A stretch of 64,000 nt of DNA from a virus (taxonomy: Duplodnaviria > Caudoviricetes): the IMG/VR virus record IMGVR_UViG_3300001580_000006, positions 64,001 through 128,000 of that record, one strand, 5' to 3'. Position 1 is the first letter of the stretch. Each line of letters starts with the position of its first letter. Under the pieces are notes generated by a model. It saw nothing but the letters and a program-made list of their open reading frames with translations. It was not told where the DNA came from and made no database searches. Positions 3,779 through 46,898 of this stretch are shown here, piece by piece. Position numbers and translations under genes: made by a program.

Positions 3779-5317
3779 ATGGCTACTACTCTCTATAGAC
3801 AACTACAGGTAATTTCGACTCCTGTTGCTGGCACGCGAATTGTTAGACAACTAGTGGTTACAGGAAGCTCGGAGCTACATGGTATAATATATCGACAGGT
3901 ATCGGTACAGGCGGTTGGTACGCCAGTACCTGCTCCTTTTGTTGTTCATAGGGAGTTAAAGATATCTGGCGAAGGCACTGAAGTAAGGACAACTTTAGTA
4001 TTTAGAGAGTTGTCTATAAGCGCAGTTAAGTACCCAGAACCGCCAGAGTTAAGCGTTACAGTTCTAGACAGCAAGGTAGTGTTGTGGGGCAACTATGATA
4101 AGACCAGTCCAACTTATGAGTTGTATGGGTCTAATGACGGAGCCACCTTTACAAAAATAGGCACCACCAATAATCAAGTGCAGATTTCAAACTTTAATGG
4201 CTATAGCCAATATAAGATAGTTGCTAACCACGATCTAGACGGTGATGGTATTAAAGAATACTCTGCAGAATCTGTATATACTGGGTTTCAGCTGCCACCA
4301 AACGCATCCATCTATTGGGCTGGAACTGCACTTAATACAACCGATCTGGCTTTAGTTGGTGCCGTGTTGGACGGCTCTGAGATAGTAGCAAAGCTAGACC
4401 CTGGTGTAGCGTACCTGCCAAACGGCTTCGGTTACTGGATTGGTAGTGGTGACCACTATGCTATTAGTACTGCAGATTTTTCCGTGCTTAACCCAAGACC
4501 AGAGTACTACCCAGTAATAACAATACCATTTAGTACTTTGATCGCTCTAAATGCCGACTTCGCAATAGATGCTGCCACCTGGCCAGTTTCGGTGTACACT
4601 ATTCGTGATGAAGAACAAGTAGCATCTCATATGCCTACGTACTCAGGTTACTTTATATATGATACACCTCCTACCAACCAAGAGTACAATACCGCTGTTA
4701 GGGTGCCAGATCCAGGCCTAGATAGACAGATAGACTCTATTCCAGTTAGAAACTGGAATACTGGAATTATATCAGATTACTCTATTCACGGCTCCAGCGT
4801 AGACTTTGATAATATTGAAGTAAATCAATTTGTGGTTGACTGGGCCAACGAAAGACTAGTTATGTGTCTTAAAGATTATTCAATTACTGGTATGGTTCAC
4901 ATCTGTATAGGAAAGAGCTCATTAGTTTCATCTAGAGATATTACCGCCGGCACACACAGAATTGGTCAATCATATTTAATATTGAAAGACAGTGACAGAT
5001 CTCAAGGCGCCAACCGACTATGTAAGTTATTGGCAGAGGTGTCACGCGGAGAGGCTGGTAGGGCTGGTATGCCAACGCAACTAACAGTATATGCCCTAGA
5101 TGAAACAGACAGCCCGGTAAGTAATATCAATATTAGTATCACCAACTCGTTGGGCTCAGGTTCATTAGCCGGCACAACAAATAGTGATGGCCTGTGCGTG
5201 GCATCATTAGATTTTATTACAGCTGGATTGGCCACTATTAAAGTAACTGCCACCGATACCCTAGGCGTCGAAGAATTAAGTCGTATTGTGCGCACTATTT
5301 ATTATGAGGTTAGGTAA
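3779..5317 (+). CDS. Putative virion protein with C-terminal Ig-like domain
   Basis: 512 aa; the C-terminal LTVYALDE...PVSNINISI...GTTNSDGLC pattern resembles Big-1/Ig-like domains; N-terminal RQLxV repeats. Confidence 0.5.
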   Translation: MATTLYRQLQVISTPVAGTRIVRQLVVTGSSELHGIIYRQVSVQAVGTPVPAPFVVHRELKISGEGTEVRTTLVFRELSISAVKYPEPPELSVTVLDSKVVLWGNYDKTSPTYELYGSNDGATFTKIGTTNNQVQISNFNGYSQYKIVANHDLDGDGIKEYSAESVYTGFQLPPNASIYWAGTALNTTDLALVGAVLDGSEIVAKLDPGVAYLPNGFGYWIGSGDHYAISTADFSVLNPRPEYYPVITIPFSTLIALNADFAIDAATWPVSVYTIRDEEQVASHMPTYSGYFIYDTPPTNQEYNTAVRVPDPGLDRQIDSIPVRNWNTGIISDYSIHGSSVDFDNIEVNQFVVDWANERLVMCLKDYSITGMVHICIGKSSLVSSRDITAGTHRIGQSYLILKDSDRSQGANRLCKLLAEVSRGEAGRAGMPTQLTVYALDETDSPVSNINISITNSLGSGSLAGTTNSDGLCVASLDFITAGLATIKVTATDTLGVEELSRIVRTIYYEVR

Positions 5318-43439: not shown

Positions 43440-43934
43440 TTAGGTAGTTGGTGAGATTTTTGCGTCTACGGAGCGCTGAATAACAACGTCGCGGACTAGG
43501 TTTGAGATAGCCGAAAGATAGGAGATCCACTCGGCCCAGAAGTTTTTGTATACATCGCACAAAGCTTTGTCAGCTTTGCTGGAATTATACTTCTGCGTAG
43601 CTCCAACAGCGGCAGCTTCAGCCATGGCTTTCTGTTTGCCATCTGAGAGCTTCTTAGTCTCTTCATTGCCGAGCAGTTTAACCATCTCCTGCTGAGCTAT
43701 AATGTCAGCTTCGTTGTCGGAGAGGATAGCAGCCCAGTTAGAGCTATCAGATTTCTTGGACCAGTGGTTGTGGTTAAGCGTAGCTACGCCAAACCGGAAG
43801 CTGATTAACTGCGACAGCGTGTTTATGTCACAGGTAGCCAGCAGGTTATCAACGTTTGCCGACATAGCTTTTCCAAGCTCATCAGCGGTAGAATCTACCT
43901 CTTCACGAGTGTAGACTTTCATATCTAGTTCCAT
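43440..43934 (-). CDS. Hypothetical helical protein
   Basis: 164 aa, GGAGG RBS, first gene after a promoter. Confidence 0.6.
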   Translation of the reverse strand: MELDMKVYTREEVDSTADELGKAMSANVDNLLATCDINTLSQLISFRFGVATLNHNHWSKKSDSSNWAAILSDNEADIIAQQEMVKLLGNEETKKLSDGKQKAMAEAAAVGATQKYNSSKADKALCDVYKNFWAEWISYLSAISNLVRDVVIQRSVDAKISPTT

Positions 43935-43956: not shown

Positions 43957-43985
43957 ATTATACCACATTAATTTGCAAAAAGCAA
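43957..43985 (-). promoter_or_regulatory. Sigma70/sigmaA-type promoter
   Basis: TTGCTT-N17-TATAAT with TGTGG extension. Confidence 0.8.
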
Positions 43986-44021: not shown

Positions 44022-46898
44022 CTATTGCTCTTCTGGCTCTTGCTTGCCTAGAAATCTTTTGGCTAAGCTAGACGCCAGTAAACTGGCCTGTTCATCGGCT
44101 GACTCCGGCGGAATGCCATCTAATACTGCATCTCCGGCTTCTGCCTTTGCCACAACATCCTGTGCTAATAAGGCATCATAGGAGTTGTCTAGTACCATTA
44201 CATAAACATTTACAGAACCCTTCTGCCCAAACCTATGGCACCTATCCTCAGCTTGGCGCATTATAAATGGACTGTAGTGCTGCTCTACAAATACTACCGT
44301 TGATGCAGATTGTAAGTTAATAGTATCTCCAGCAGCTTCGATAGAGCCTATGAATATTCTACGATCAGGGTTGTTATTAAACTCGTCTATGATATCAAAC
44401 CGCCTGGTCTGATCATTCATTCTTCCATCTATAAGCAAAGAGCCAGGAAACGCTGAGGTTAAAATATCCGATACGTCATGGTGTCTAGTAAACACAACTA
44501 TCTTTCCCTTGTCGTCTTCCATCTCCTCCAACAAATCCTGTATGAACTCTACGGCAGCTGGAGCTTTCGCAACACCAACCTTCTTCATAAGACTAAATAT
44601 CATTCCCTGAACTTCTGGTTTTCTCATACAGGAAATTATTTGGGCGATAGTAGGAGCTCTATTGCCGAGCTCTCTCCCTAGTTCTTTGAATAGAGACTTC
44701 TCAGCTTTACGCACCTCAACTCGGTTCTTTGCATCAGTCTCTAACTCAATGATGGTCCGCACTTTTGGTGGGAGGTCTTTAAGAACTGCCGACTTTAGTC
44801 TACGCATCATACAACTTTCAGACAGCTTCTGGTGAAGATCGTCCATATTTATTGGAGCTGACTTTTTATAATCCTGATTGCCAGAGTGTGTTACAGGGTC
44901 ATACCCAAAGTATCTACGCAAGAACCAAGCCTTATCTGGGAATGTTAGTGGGTCAATGAGATGGATGATCTTCCACAGGTCAAGCACCTTATTGTATATT
45001 GGAGTTCCGGTTGCACAGATTACAGCTTGAACCTTCCTGCAAATAGTCATAGCTGCCTGTGTTCGCTGCGCTTTGTAGTTTTTGCAGTTGGAGACTAAAA
45101 CCCCGTTGGCGAAATAGTTATTGTTATTAGCAACTTCTATGTTGTATACAGGTATTAGATCCTGCGTTTGGCTATTTCCTGTAGAACTCGTGGTAGGTCC
45201 GCTATAACCTCCTCGTTCCAGAACCTCAGCACTAACCACCCGAGAGCACGCAAGACCTCTGTTTTCCGATGGTCGAGGAACCGCCAAAGTTTCAGTTTGT
45301 GTGTTTTGCCGTCGATCTCTATTGCTATCTTCCGTATTGGATCTGCTATATCCACTTTGTAGCAATGAGGTAAACTTTTGAATTGTTCGGCAACAGGATG
45401 CGTTAATATAATATATTCTGTTGGAAGACCTAGTGCATCCGCAACTAATTTCTGCTGAGTAGTTAGTGTTCCATTGCCACCCCGTGCCAAGAAGGTTCTG
45501 CCAATTAACTTTTGCCGCATCTTTTCCCTGGCAACGGGGTCTGCCATTGGATTGCGCTCCCTCATCCTCTGCGCAGCATCCGGGCGCCTTCGTCCTACAT
45601 TTGATGCCTGTGCTGTCTTTATTACAACACGACAGATTTCTTTTCTGCCCGGCTGTGCCATTCTCCATTTTGCGGCACAGGTGTTGCCGCAAAAGCGCAA
45701 TCTGTTCTTTGCACCATAATGATTTTTTGGTATAAAGGTCCTGCCACAATACTCGCAGATCTGTGGCTTTATTGGCTTCTTTAGCGCCTTGCTTATCGCG
45801 CTTCTTACATCGATTCGCGCATTTACCGCTATAGCGGCACAGCTTCGGGAGCAGTATACCGTTGTCGTCCTGCCGCGTTTTCTGGTTTTGAACTTCTTGT
45901 GGCAATACCGACAAGACATCTCTGTTAGACAAGCTTGCCGCCTCTTTGTAGCCCGAAGCAGTCCAGATCTTGTGGTTGCCAGTGCAGATAAATTCTCCAT
46001 GTTCATGGGTTATCCTCATCAATGTGTTAGTATAATTATAGCACATTTCATAGGAAAATCCAATATGCCTCTTAAATCTTTCTGCAATGGGCTGCCACTC
46101 TAACTGTCCAGTTTGTTTGTTATGGGACAGAGCCAGGTGCCCAACGCCGTGTTCAACCACGTCGCCTATTGACTGTGGTCCTTCATCAGTTATTATAGTA
46201 GCATTATATGGAAAGCAAAAGTGTGCTTCATCTAGTACAATTAACTGTGGGGCAAACTCTTTAATAACGTCTACGTACCTATTAAGTATCTCATAGTTAA
46301 TTATGAATACTATTCTTCCCCCTTGTTGAAGGTAGACGCGGCTTTGTTTCATCCAGTCTATACAGTCGTTCCCAGTGGCGAACCTTACGAGCTTTTCGCC
46401 CATAAGCCACTTGTTTGTCTCCCTTTCCCAATTCTTTTTTCCTATCGCTTTGCATACAACCACAACCTTTCTAATATCGGTTCTTAAGTTTAGCCAGGAC
46501 AGTATCTCGATTGTCTTTCCTGTGCCCATTTCGTCGGCTAATAGGATACGGCCATCATGTAACTGTGCAAACTCTACTGCAGCCCTCTGGTATGATCTTA
46601 CGATAAGCCCTTCTGGACACGGCACCTCTATATCAGATTCAGTGGCCCTAGATAGAGCCTTAGACTTGACCTTACGGTCCGCCAAAGTTATGGCTTCTGC
46701 TCTGATTGGTTCTATCTCCGGATCTAGAACTACACCTGGAGTGTCGCTGCCAAGTAGGCTAAGAAGTTGTTTGCGATTTAAGTACCAGCATTTATCTTCT
46801 GGCGACCAGGTAGCCTTAACGTCCTTTAAATAATCCTTCTCGTGATATGAAGTGATTGCGACGTATAAGTCTGCGCCAGGCTCTTTAAATATCTGCAC
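44022..46898 (-). CDS. SNF2-family helicase containing an intein
   Basis: LLADEMGTGKT, LDEAH, ATGTP, MMRRLK, INLQ, QAEDRCHRFGQ. Confidence 0.95.
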   Translation of the reverse strand: MQIFKEPGADLYVAITSYHEKDYLKDVKATWSPEDKCWYLNRKQLLSLLGSDTPGVVLDPEIEPIRAEAITLADRKVKSKALSRATESDIEVPCPEGLIVRSYQRAAVEFAQLHDGRILLADEMGTGKTIEILSWLNLRTDIRKVVVVCKAIGKKNWERETNKWLMGEKLVRFATGNDCIDWMKQSRVYLQQGGRIVFIINYEILNRYVDVIKEFAPQLIVLDEAHFCFPYNATIITDEGPQSIGDVVEHGVGHLALSHNKQTGQLEWQPIAERFKRHIGFSYEMCYNYTNTLMRITHEHGEFICTGNHKIWTASGYKEAASLSNRDVLSVLPQEVQNQKTRQDDNGILLPKLCRYSGKCANRCKKRDKQGAKEANKATDLRVLWQDLYTKKSLWCKEQIALLRQHLCRKMENGTAGQKRNLSCCNKDSTGIKCRTKAPGCCAEDEGAQSNGRPRCQGKDAAKVNWQNLLGTGWQWNTNYSAEISCGCTRSSNRIYYINASCCRTIQKFTSLLQSGYSRSNTEDSNRDRRQNTQTETLAVPRPSENRGLACSRVVSAEVLERGGYSGPTTSSTGNSQTQDLIPVYNIEVANNNNYFANGVLVSNCKNYKAQRTQAAMTICRKVQAVICATGTPIYNKVLDLWKIIHLIDPLTFPDKAWFLRRYFGYDPVTHSGNQDYKKSAPINMDDLHQKLSESCMMRRLKSAVLKDLPPKVRTIIELETDAKNRVEVRKAEKSLFKELGRELGNRAPTIAQIISCMRKPEVQGMIFSLMKKVGVAKAPAAVEFIQDLLEEMEDDKGKIVVFTRHHDVSDILTSAFPGSLLIDGRMNDQTRRFDIIDEFNNNPDRRIFIGSIEAAGDTINLQSASTVVFVEQHYSPFIMRQAEDRCHRFGQKGSVNVYVMVLDNSYDALLAQDVVAKAEAGDAVLDGIPPESADEQASLLASSLAKRFLGKQEPEEQ
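45155..46006 (-). CDS. Zinc-finger + DUF559/Vsr-like endonuclease overprinted in the +1 frame of the intein
   Basis: CRYC..F..YCSRSC, CEYC..F..FCGNTC, YKVDIA, IAIEIDGKTH, LRALGWLVLRFWN; GAGG RBS. Confidence 0.88.
   Translation of the reverse strand: MNMENLSALATTRSGLLRATKRRQACLTEMSCRYCHKKFKTRKRGRTTTVYCSRSCAAIAVNARIDVRSAISKALKKPIKPQICEYCGRTFIPKNHYGAKNRLRFCGNTCAAKWRMAQPGRKEICRVVIKTAQASNVGRRRPDAAQRMRERNPMADPVAREKMRQKLIGRTFLARGGNGTLTTQQKLVADALGLPTEYIILTHPVAEQFKSLPHCYKVDIADPIRKIAIEIDGKTHKLKLWRFLDHRKTEVLRALGWLVLRFWNEEVIADLPRVLQEIAKRRI
46035..46063 (-). promoter_or_regulatory. Promoter embedded in the intein coding sequence
   Basis: TTGGAT-N17-TATAAT with TGTGC extension, 28 nt upstream of the endonuclease ATG. 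Confidence 0.8.

What the first reader, a model, noticed from the sequence alone, without database searches (positions are those of the whole stretch)
45087..46217. Intein whose homing endonuclease is a separate gene overprinted in the +1 frame
Seen: the 377-aa intein has intact splicing blocks, but its ~250-aa middle in the intein frame has no recognisable domain. The same DNA read in the +1 frame (45155..46006) is a coherent 283-aa protein with two CxxC...CxxxC zinc fingers, a basic linker and a DUF559/Vsr-like nuclease (VDIA, IEIDG..H, GW.VLRFWN). It stops just before block F. Both frames stay open over 852 nt. Established: characterised inteins carry their endonuclease in frame and release it by splicing. 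Inference: this is a dual-coded mobile element in which a free-standing nuclease gene invaded a mini-intein and kept the intein frame open, so mobility is uncoupled from host-protein translation and splicing. I am not aware of this architecture being described, but I could not search the literature.
Basis: partly seen in the sequence, partly recalled or inferred. Interest (0 to 1): 0.92.

Follow-up and report, generated by a model that had tools for sequence, protein, structure and literature searches.

The report
Helicase intein with overprinted homing nuclease
A phage helicase gene carries a self-splicing protein insert (an intein), and the DNA-cutting enzyme that spreads it is a separate gene written one base out of step over the same DNA; this is real, under selection and very common in phages, but the general layout has already been described.

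Summary
The SNF2 helicase gene (44022-46898, minus strand) carries a 377-aa intein (45087-46217). It sits exactly between DEAHF and CKN of helicase motif II. A 283-aa ORF (45155-46006) lies in the +1 frame. It encodes two FCS-type zinc fingers and an EDxHD/Vsr-like (DUF559) nuclease.

Both frames are kept by selection:
- Synonymous shuffles of the nuclease ORF predict about 13 stops in the intein frame; none is present.
- All 85 related phage loci examined have the same +1 nesting.
- Substitutions follow the nuclease frame.
- T is never used at the third codon position where it would create a host-frame stop (0 of 5766 cases).

AlphaFold gives a confident nuclease model. In the intein frame it gives a HINT domain interrupted by a roughly 210-aa low-confidence linker. 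This window also has a consensus phage promoter, GAGGA and ATG inside a 9-aa insertion unique to this intein.

The claim that the layout is undescribed does not hold. Alternative-frame intein nucleases were reported by Gorbalenya (1998) and in 2025-2026 Gogarten-lab papers. I did not find the sense +1 EDxHD form in the literature I could search. This scan has already flagged the same layout in at least 25 other genomes. My verdict is a new variant of a known kind. Expression, splicing and homing remain inferred.

The parts
44022..46898 (-). SNF2-family helicase gene (958-aa precursor including the intein)
   Evidence: ORF; Pfam SNF2-rel_dom 1.8e-29 and Helicase_C 3.2e-10; PHROG 62 DNA helicase 1.6e-85
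46218..46898 (-). N-extein, ending in Walker B / motif II ...LDEAHF
   Evidence: Aligns to residues 10-226 of the intein-less homologue P0121
45087..46217 (-). Intein, 377 aa: Cys1, block B T79-x-x-H82, terminal Asn377, +1 Cys
   Evidence: Boundaries from the P0121 comparison and the 67-intein alignment A3, where C1, H82 and N377 are invariant; Pfam Intein_splicing hits below the cut-off
45888..46217 (-). N-terminal HINT splicing subdomain (intein residues 1-110)
   Evidence: AlphaFold pLDDT 94-98; Foldseek matches mini-inteins 7CFV, 2IN9, 4O1R, 6QAZ at E 1e-6 to 1e-5
46035..46063 (-). Promoter-like site TTGGAT-N17-TATAAT with an extended -10 (TGC TATAAT). It is encoded by a 9-aa insertion, GFSYEMCYN (intein residues 53-61, 46035-46061).
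   Evidence: The exact motif occurs twice in the 223-kb genome; the other copy is intergenic. It is the only coding TGnTATAAT site with a 6/6 -35 hexamer. The insertion is absent from the 66 other inteins. pLDDT dips to 66 there.
46013..46017 (-). Shine-Dalgarno-like GAGGA, 6 nt upstream of the nuclease ATG
   Evidence: Sequence read; GAGG or AGGA also precedes the nuclease start in L001, L003, L004, L005 and L006
45155..46006 (-). Overprinted homing-endonuclease gene, +1 frame, 283 aa plus stop. An alternative start at ATG 45919 would give 254 aa.
   Evidence: ORF; frame; DUF559 6.5e-13; AlphaFold mean pLDDT 87.8, with residues 1-20 low
45839..45913 (-). Zinc finger 1 (nuclease residues 32-56, CRYC...YCSRSC), FCS/MYM-like
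   Evidence: Sequence; weak profile hits to FCS-type fingers and L24e; PF06467 is precomputed on some homologues. Absent in L001 and L002.
45677..45757 (-). Zinc finger 2 (nuclease residues 84-110, CEYC...FCGNTC)
   Evidence: C84, C87, C106 and C110 are at least 90% conserved in 68 nucleases
45158..45439 (-). EDxHD/Vsr-like catalytic domain (nuclease residues about 190-283; D219, E230, D232, H236, D245)
   Evidence: These residues are invariant in 68 sequences. Top Foldseek hit is 3R3P, the I-Bth0305I catalytic domain (TM 0.67), followed by 3HRL and 1VSR. The profile hits 3HRL at 3.8e-11 and 3R3P at 0.011.
45258..45887 (-). Host-frame linker (intein residues 111-320): no recognisable domain, kept stop-free
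   Evidence: pLDDT about 45-55; no Pfam hit; host-frame identity 0.47 against 0.66 in the nuclease frame over the same DNA
45087..45257 (-). C-terminal splicing subdomain (intein residues 321-377). Its first 33 codons overlap the nuclease C-terminus.
   Evidence: pLDDT is 95 for residues 321-330, low for 331-350, and 83-98 for 351-377. The strand RVVSAEVLE (residues 326-334) is co-encoded with nuclease GWLVLRFWN (residues 256-264).
44022..45086 (-). C-extein, starting CKN...
   Evidence: 51% identical to P0121 residues 228-547

Best explanation
This is a mobile class-1 intein inserted in the Walker B / motif II box (DEAHF|CKN) of a phage SNF2 helicase. Its homing endonuclease is not an in-frame domain. 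It is an independent gene in the +1 frame of the DNA between the two halves of the splicing domain. Ribosomes translating the helicase read that DNA as a roughly 210-aa hydrophilic, probably disordered linker. The N- and C-terminal HINT halves then fold together and splice the helicase. The nuclease has two FCS-type zinc fingers, a helical NPM/GGNG region and an EDxHD/Vsr-like catalytic domain. In this phage it is probably transcribed from its own promoter, which lies in a 9-aa insertion of the intein, and translated from GAGGA and ATG 46006. It is expected to cut intein-less helicase alleles of co-infecting phages so that repair copies the whole element in. Shown here: the architecture, selection on both frames, the folds and the wide recurrence. 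Inferred: expression, splicing, cleavage and homing.
For: The open host frame is selected. No stops are seen against 12.8 expected in the window (0 of 20000 shuffles). Across 79 unique loci no stops are seen against 11.2 expected per locus, while the third sense frame is unselected (21.1 seen, 19.7 expected). T occupies the third codon position in 0 of 5766 cases before AA/AG/GA codons, against 27.6% elsewhere. The nuclease frame is under purifying selection: substitutions per codon position are 0.25/0.22/0.40, and amino-acid identity is 0.66 against 0.47 in the host frame. D219, E230, D232, H236 and D245 are invariant in 68 sequences. Folds: the nuclease model has pLDDT 87.8 and its top hit is I-Bth0305I. 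The intein model shows a HINT domain with a low-confidence 111-320 linker and matches mini-inteins. Recurrence: four GenBank phages (Pseudomonas MR14, Corynebacterium phi673, Vibrio CP-T1 and 1.194.O) and 81 IMG/VR loci all place the nuclease at host +1. Splicing residues: C1, H82 and N377 are invariant, and 81 of 83 inteins end in Asn followed by Cys or Ser. An intein-less homologue shows the empty site. Own expression signals. Free-standing relatives of the nuclease exist.
Against: This intein lacks both the penultimate His (it has Ser) and the block-F His (it has Asn). Among 77 unique inteins only L018 shares that combination, so C-terminal cleavage could be slow or impaired. The closest intein-less homologue found is only 43-51% identical, so recent homing in this lineage is not shown. 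The nuclease tree clusters by host protein class (12 changes against 28.6 in shuffles), so much of the spread may be vertical. The promoter is a consensus match, not a mapped transcription start.
Confidence: 0.85

Rival explanations
1. Assembly artefact. Two compensating indels hide an ordinary in-frame endonuclease domain.
For: Reads could not be examined. One related metagenome contig (L088) does carry a single indel that swaps the frames midway.
Against: All 85 independent loci, including four isolate phage genomes, have the same +1 nesting. Each nuclease has its own start region and its own stop before the intein end. Stop-avoiding codon choice in the host frame (0 of 5766) would not arise from sequencing errors.
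Confidence: 0.01
2. The nuclease is made by programmed +1 ribosomal frameshifting from the helicase/intein frame. The product would be an N-extein-IntN-nuclease fusion or an in-frame intein domain, not the product of a separate gene.
For: The two ORFs are on the same strand in the +1 relation. No direct evidence for internal initiation exists.
Against: ATG codons with GAGG-like sites precede the first zinc finger in the seven loci inspected. In this window a full promoter, SD and ATG lie upstream. The nuclease frame ends in a stop before block F, so no spliceable fusion could form. The host frame is kept open over its whole length, which is only needed if ribosomes read through it. I did not search for a slippery or shift-prone motif.
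Confidence: 0.04
3. The nested ORF is an inactive relic and the element is effectively a mini-intein with a long spacer. Alternatively the nuclease has been domesticated for another role, such as phage-phage competition, rather than homing.
For: The nuclease phylogeny largely follows host protein class. No close intein-less allele was found. The intein lacks two auxiliary His residues.
Against: Catalytic residues are invariant, third-position substitutions dominate in the nuclease frame, and the fold is confident. This argues against a relic. Only 1 of 85 loci has a broken nuclease (L081). Related nucleases sit in different host proteins and in three insertion registers, which needs mobility. 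Domestication cannot be excluded.
Confidence: 0.1

Closest known systems
Non-canonical actinobacteriophage inteins (Gosselin, Arsenault & Gogarten, bioRxiv 10.1101/2025.01.02.630785)
   Same: A contiguous intein whose endonuclease is a separate overlapping ORF between the splicing blocks. The in-frame middle is unstructured. The authors propose invasion of an intein by a free-standing nuclease, and they predict such elements are under-annotated.
   Different: They report antisense LAGLIDADG, antisense VSR-like and frame-3 EndoVII-like nucleases in polymerase, minor capsid, terminase and thymidylate synthase. Here the VSR/EDxHD-like nuclease is on the sense strand in the +1 frame, carries FCS-type zinc fingers, and sits at the Walker B box of helicases and clamp loaders. 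At least 379 relatives were detected in IMG/VR; the 80 fetched are all +1.
Cyanobacterial DnaX intein with an out-of-frame endonuclease (Gorbalenya 1998 as cited; Phillips, DeSimone & Gogarten, bioRxiv 10.64898/2026.09.14.751524)
   Same: A sense-strand overlapping ORF inside an intein. Purifying selection acts on the nuclease frame, the intein frame is relaxed, and the in-frame region is predicted disordered.
   Different: That nuclease is a LAGLIDADG enzyme in the +2 ORF of a bacterial chromosomal gene. This one is an EDxHD/Vsr-like enzyme in the +1 frame in phages.
Fractured genes: split inteins separated by a free-standing Vsr-like or GIY-YIG endonuclease gene (Dassa et al. 2009, PMC2677866)
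   Same: A Vsr-like nuclease lies between the N and C intein halves in phage replication genes. The free-standing-gene logic is the same, with a short coding overlap at the 3' end. The intein model here also matches the gp41-1 and NrdJ-1 inteins of that set.
   Different: Fractured genes have a stop after IntN and a new start for IntC, so splicing is in trans. Here no host-frame stop exists in any of 79 unique loci, so the intein is contiguous and the overlap covers the whole nuclease.
I-Bth0305I, prototype EDxHD homing endonuclease (Taylor et al. 2011, PMC3239194; PDB 3R3P)
   Same: It is the best structural match of the catalytic domain. The E/D/H/D residues are conserved, and both have a two-part layout with an N-terminal DNA-binding region and a C-terminal nuclease.
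   Different: I-Bth0305I is encoded in a group I intron of recA and has NUMOD-like N-terminal motifs. This protein is overprinted on an intein and has Cys4 FCS-type fingers.
ShiLan insertion with a hidden out-of-frame HNH endonuclease in a phage methylase (Arsenault et al. 2025, PMC11855218)
   Same: An out-of-frame nuclease ORF is inside a host gene whose own frame stays open across the insert.
   Different: ShiLan has no splicing domain and is thought to stay in the mature protein. Here intact HINT blocks flank the insert.

Membership tests
Class 1 intein (HINT domain) | Nucleophile (Cys/Ser/Thr) at intein position 1 | tested here: met
   Cys1 follows DEAHF; it is invariant in 67 inteins
Class 1 intein (HINT domain) | Block B T-x-x-H | tested here: met
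   T79-G-N-H82; H82 is invariant
Class 1 intein (HINT domain) | C-terminal Asn followed by a Cys/Ser/Thr +1 residue | tested here: met
   ...VLVSN|CKN; 81 of 83 loci end in N followed by C or S
Class 1 intein (HINT domain) | Penultimate His and block-F His that assist Asn cyclisation (common, not universal) | tested here: not met
   Ser376 and Asn at the block-F position. Only W and L018 lack both among 77 unique inteins.
Class 1 intein (HINT domain) | HINT fold | tested here: met
   In the AlphaFold model residues 1-110 and most of 321-377 have high pLDDT. Foldseek matches mini-inteins at E 1e-6, TM about 0.6.
Class 1 intein (HINT domain) | Precise in-frame insertion in a conserved site, absent from homologues | tested here: met
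   P0121 reads DEAHF-I-KN without a break and lacks residues 228-604
Class 1 intein (HINT domain) | Protein splicing activity | not testable with these tools
   Needs expression of the precursor
EDxHD / Vsr-like (DUF559) homing endonucleases | Conserved E, D, H, D catalytic residues | tested here: met
   E230, D232, H236 and D245 (plus D219) are invariant in 68 sequences
EDxHD / Vsr-like (DUF559) homing endonucleases | Vsr-type nuclease fold or profile match | tested here: met
   Pfam DUF559 at 49 bits against a cut-off of 20.6. Profile to 3HRL 3.8e-11 and 3R3P 0.011. Foldseek top hit 3R3P, TM 0.67, E 9.5e-3.
EDxHD / Vsr-like (DUF559) homing endonucleases | Site-specific cleavage of the element-free allele | not testable with these tools
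   Needs a biochemical assay
Non-canonical inteins (endonuclease in another frame or strand) | Complete nuclease ORF between the splicing blocks, not in the intein frame | tested here: met
   +1 frame (offset 892); the same in 85 loci
Non-canonical inteins (endonuclease in another frame or strand) | Intein frame stays open, with selection on the nuclease frame | tested here: met
Fractured genes / split inteins (Dassa 2009) | Stop codon after IntN and a separate start for IntC, giving two host ORFs | tested here: not met
   A single uninterrupted 958-aa ORF; no host-frame stops in 79 unique loci

The most novel reading that the evidence does not exclude
Sense +1 overprinting may be the standard way EDxHD/Vsr-like homing endonucleases associate with contiguous inteins in phages. 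On this reading it is one old, co-adapted lineage with hundreds of members at Walker B sites of helicases and clamp loaders. The +1 relation would be fixed because it is the only sense overlap whose stops can all be removed by synonymous changes. Individual members, as in this window, would have evolved a complete promoter inside the splicing domain as an in-frame 9-aa insertion, so that nuclease expression is transcriptionally independent of the host gene.
Probability: 0.45. Interest if true: 0.65.

Novelty: new variant of a known kind. Interest (0 to 1): 0.5.

Why it matters
Inteins are usually taught, and annotated, as single polypeptides with an in-frame endonuclease. This case belongs to a large phage family in which the nuclease is a second gene on the same DNA. 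Gene callers miss it: GenBank records label the whole stretch "helicase" or "coil containing protein". Such inteins are likely to be misread as decaying or endonuclease-free.

The family gives a clean natural data set of at least 79 independent sequences for studying how two reading frames are maintained. It supports the idea that intein endonucleases began as free-standing genes. It also offers compact EDxHD nucleases with zinc-finger DNA-binding modules as candidates for characterisation. The promoter embedded in coding sequence is a concrete, testable example of regulatory signals written into a protein loop.

Tried and rejected
- **blastn against phages.** The helicase gene gave no nucleotide match. 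Relatives were found only at the protein level.
- **Assembly artefact and programmed frameshifting.** Both were considered and judged very unlikely; see the rival explanations.
- **Split-intein or fractured-gene reading.** Rejected because there is no host-frame stop.
- **Whole-model Foldseek E-values for the nuclease.** These were weak (above 0.001) because only the roughly 100-aa catalytic domain has solved relatives. I relied on the rank order (3R3P, 3HRL, 1VSR) together with the profile hits.
- **First genome pattern search for the promoter.** I used an 18-nt spacer by mistake and it missed the site. I repeated it correctly by script.
- **Internal promoters as a general family feature.** Extended -10-like sites are 3.3 times denser in the intein N-domains of other loci (1.11 against 0.34 per kb, in 22 of 79 loci). 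Several of them coincide with conserved coding motifs, so I treat this as inconclusive.
- **L088 (P0097).** It looked like an in-frame intein-nuclease fusion. It is the same overprinted layout with one indel that breaks both frames.
Full report
**1. What is in the sequence**

All features lie on the minus strand. ORF 44022-46898 encodes a 958-aa protein with SNF2-rel_dom and Helicase_C domains. Between ...LDEAHF and CKNYKAQ... sits a 377-aa insert (45087-46217). It starts with Cys and ends in ...VLVSN. Pfam's Intein_splicing model matches only its two ends.

A homologous helicase without the insert (P0121, 564 aa, 43-51% identical) aligns up to DEAHF and resumes at KN. It reads DEAHF-I-KN, so the boundaries are exact.

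Inside the insert, ORF 45155-46006 (283 aa) starts at offset 892 of the helicase ORF, which is the +1 frame. It matches DUF559 at 49 bits against a cut-off of 20.6. It contains two CxxC...CxxxC modules. It stops 23 codons before the end of the intein.

**2. More than chance**

Outside the nested ORF the +1 frame of the helicase has 60 stops; inside it has none. The third sense frame has 25 stops in the same 852 nt. I kept the nuclease protein and its codon usage and shuffled synonymous codons. This gave a mean of 12.8 stops in the intein frame, and none of 20000 shuffles was stop-free.

**3. Recurrence**

tblastn of the nested protein against GenBank phages gave 40 records, and the match fell under a single annotated CDS in each, mostly labelled "helicase" or "coil containing protein". 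In Pseudomonas phage MR14, Corynebacterium phage phi673, Vibrio phage CP-T1 and Vibrio phage 1.194.O the match lies in the +1 frame of that CDS.

A profile scan of IMG/VR found at least 379 relatives. I fetched the best 80. In all 85 loci examined the nuclease ORF is nested in a longer ORF (654 to more than 2900 aa) whose frame is nuclease minus 1. Only one nuclease (L081) is interrupted.

Across 79 unique loci the host frame has no stops, against 11.2 expected per locus. The third sense frame is unselected, with 21.1 seen and 19.7 expected. T is never used at a third codon position ahead of an AA-, AG- or GA-starting codon (0 of 5766). Elsewhere it is used 27.6% of the time.

The other sense overlap would carry on average 3.7 stops that cannot be removed (Met followed by I, M, T, N or K). 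In the observed relation every stop can be removed by a T-to-C synonymous change. This offers a code-level reason why only +1 is seen. A single origin is not excluded as the alternative reason.

**4. Which frame is under protein-level selection**

I compared 111 locus pairs with 55-97% nuclease identity. Differences per nuclease codon position are 0.25, 0.22 and 0.40. Amino-acid identity is 0.66 in the nuclease frame and 0.47 in the host frame over the same DNA. Exteins show the normal pattern in their own frame.

D219, E230, D232, H236, D245, K248, G256, W257, R261, F262 and N264 are invariant in 68 nucleases. The four cysteines of finger 2 are at least 90% conserved.

**5. Folds**

With a 68-sequence alignment AlphaFold models the nuclease at mean pLDDT 87.8. 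Only residues 1-20 are poor. The best structural matches are the I-Bth0305I catalytic domain (3R3P, TM 0.67), a DUF559 protein (3HRL) and E. coli Vsr. The sequence profile hits 3HRL at 3.8e-11 and 3R3P at 0.011, and the fingers resemble FCS/MYM-type and L24e zinc ribbons.

The intein frame, modelled with 67 sequences, gives pLDDT 94-98 for residues 1-110. Residues 111-320 score about 45-55. Residues 321-377 are mostly high. The structured parts match mini-intein HINT domains: DnaX, RecA, NpuDnaB, NrdJ-1 and gp41-1 at E 1e-6 to 1e-5.

So one DNA stretch encodes a well-folded nuclease in one frame and a spacer in the other.

**6. Splicing residues**

C1, H82 (block B T-x-x-H) and N377 are invariant. 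Of 83 inteins, 81 end in Asn followed by Cys or Ser.

Most inteins have either the block-F His or the penultimate His. This window and L018 have neither (Asn and Ser). That leaves splicing efficiency here an open question.

**7. Hosts and sites**

Every intein begins CF... directly after the Walker B Asp-Glu. There are three registers: DE|C in most; DExx|C; and DExxx|C in this window and L011, L013, L016, L018, L022, L029, L064 and L070.

Hosts include the following:
- SNF2 helicases
- ResIII/DEAD helicases
- helicase-methylase fusions
- ORFs longer than 2900 aa
- clamp-loader ATPases (AAA plus DNA_pol3_delta2)

The nuclease tree clusters by host class (12 label changes against 28.6 in shuffles) but needs several switches. 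This window groups weakly with nucleases from the giant SNF2 proteins, which use other registers. Its nuclease is 58% identical to that of L008, while the C-exteins are only 30% identical. Free-standing relatives of the nuclease exist, in a Massilia mobile element and between small phage genes.

**8. Expression signals in this window**

I followed a first-stage note (e1-5664061). The minus strand at 46035-46063 reads TTGGAT-N17-TATAAT with TGC before the -10 hexamer. It is followed by GAGGA and ATG 46006.

The exact hexamer pair occurs only twice in the 223-kb genome. The other copy is intergenic. The genome has 41 TGnTATAAT sites. Eighteen of them fall in the roughly 9% that is non-coding, and these are typically followed by an SD and an ATG. 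The intein site is the only coding one with a perfect -35 hexamer.

The motif is encoded by a 9-aa insertion (GFSYEMCYN, intein residues 53-61) that none of the other 66 inteins has. pLDDT dips to 66 there.

This is good computational support for an internal promoter, but it is still a consensus match. In other loci only GAGG-like sites before the nuclease ATG are evident. Enrichment of -10-like sites there is inconclusive.

**9. Depth of the overlap**

The nuclease ends 2 to 25 codons before the intein end, so in many loci it overlaps blocks F and G. In this window the intein beta-strand RVVSAEVLE (residues 326-334, pLDDT about 95) is encoded by the same bases as the invariant nuclease motif GWLVLRFWN (residues 256-264). 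The host-frame conservation there may partly be a by-product of the nuclease constraint.

**10. Literature**

Alternative-frame or antisense intein endonucleases are known. Sources are:
- Gorbalenya 1998, as cited in both preprints
- the actinophage survey, which reports antisense LAGLIDADG, antisense VSR-like and frame-3 EndoVII-like nucleases
- the cyanobacterial DnaX intein with a +2 LAGLIDADG ORF

Vsr-like nucleases between split-intein halves are the "fractured genes" of Dassa et al. 2009. I-Bth0305I is the characterised EDxHD prototype.

Three full-text searches found no description of a sense +1 EDxHD/Vsr-like nuclease in contiguous Walker-B inteins. A 2022 preprint mentions a VSR flanked by Hint domains but gives no frame. 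The library covers only open-access papers.

This scan has noted the same layout 27 times in at least 25 genomes, with follow-ups reaching the same verdict. My tests were made independently on this window.

**11. Verdict**

The dual-coding interpretation is supported. The claim of an undescribed architecture is not. I class it as a new variant of a known kind. The local point of interest is the promoter written into the splicing domain. Expression, splicing, cleavage and homing remain inferences.

Noticed in passing
window 43957-43985 (-): Another promoter-like site (TTGCTT-N17-TGnTATAAT), followed by GGAGGAAGT and ATG, lies between the helicase stop (44022) and the next gene (43440-43934). 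It has the same layout as the site inside the intein.
   Followed up: partly
window 45087-45130 (-); L018: This intein and L018 are the only two of 77 unique inteins that lack both the block-F His (Asn here) and the penultimate His (Ser here). All others keep at least one, mostly in the combinations H...SN or P/N/H...HN.
   Followed up: partly
window 45216-45242 (-): The intein strand RVVSAEVLE and the invariant nuclease motif GWLVLRFWN are encoded by the same bases. This is a stretch where both frames appear functionally constrained.
   Followed up: partly
L045 and L073 (both from IMGVR_UViG_3300044800_000040): One 68.7-kb viral contig carries two overprinted intein-nuclease elements about 19 kb apart. 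One is in an SNF2 helicase and one is in a clamp-loader-like gene.
   Followed up: no
L088:42-1921: A metagenome contig has the same layout, but a single indel near position 950 swaps the frames. A gene caller therefore produced a 372-aa 'intein plus DUF559' fusion protein (P0097). This is either a decayed copy or an assembly error.
   Followed up: partly
L001-L086, intein N-termini: All inteins start with CF directly after the Walker B DE, in three registers (DE|C, DExx|C, DExxx|C). Related nucleases occur in different registers, which suggests the insertion point slides or the element re-targets within the same motif.
   Followed up: partly
own genome (G000, 223464 bases): The genome has 41 TGnTATAAT extended -10 sites, and 18 of them fall in the roughly 9% non-coding DNA. 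This phage appears to use sigma-70-like promoters with -35 TTGGWT or TTGACT and a 17-nt spacer.
   Followed up: partly
L087 (Massilia aurea contig, 4001-4660): A free-standing relative of the nuclease (55% identical over 70% of the query) sits on an integrase/Mob_Pre/resolvase element in a bacterial genome, with no overlapping host ORF.
   Followed up: partly
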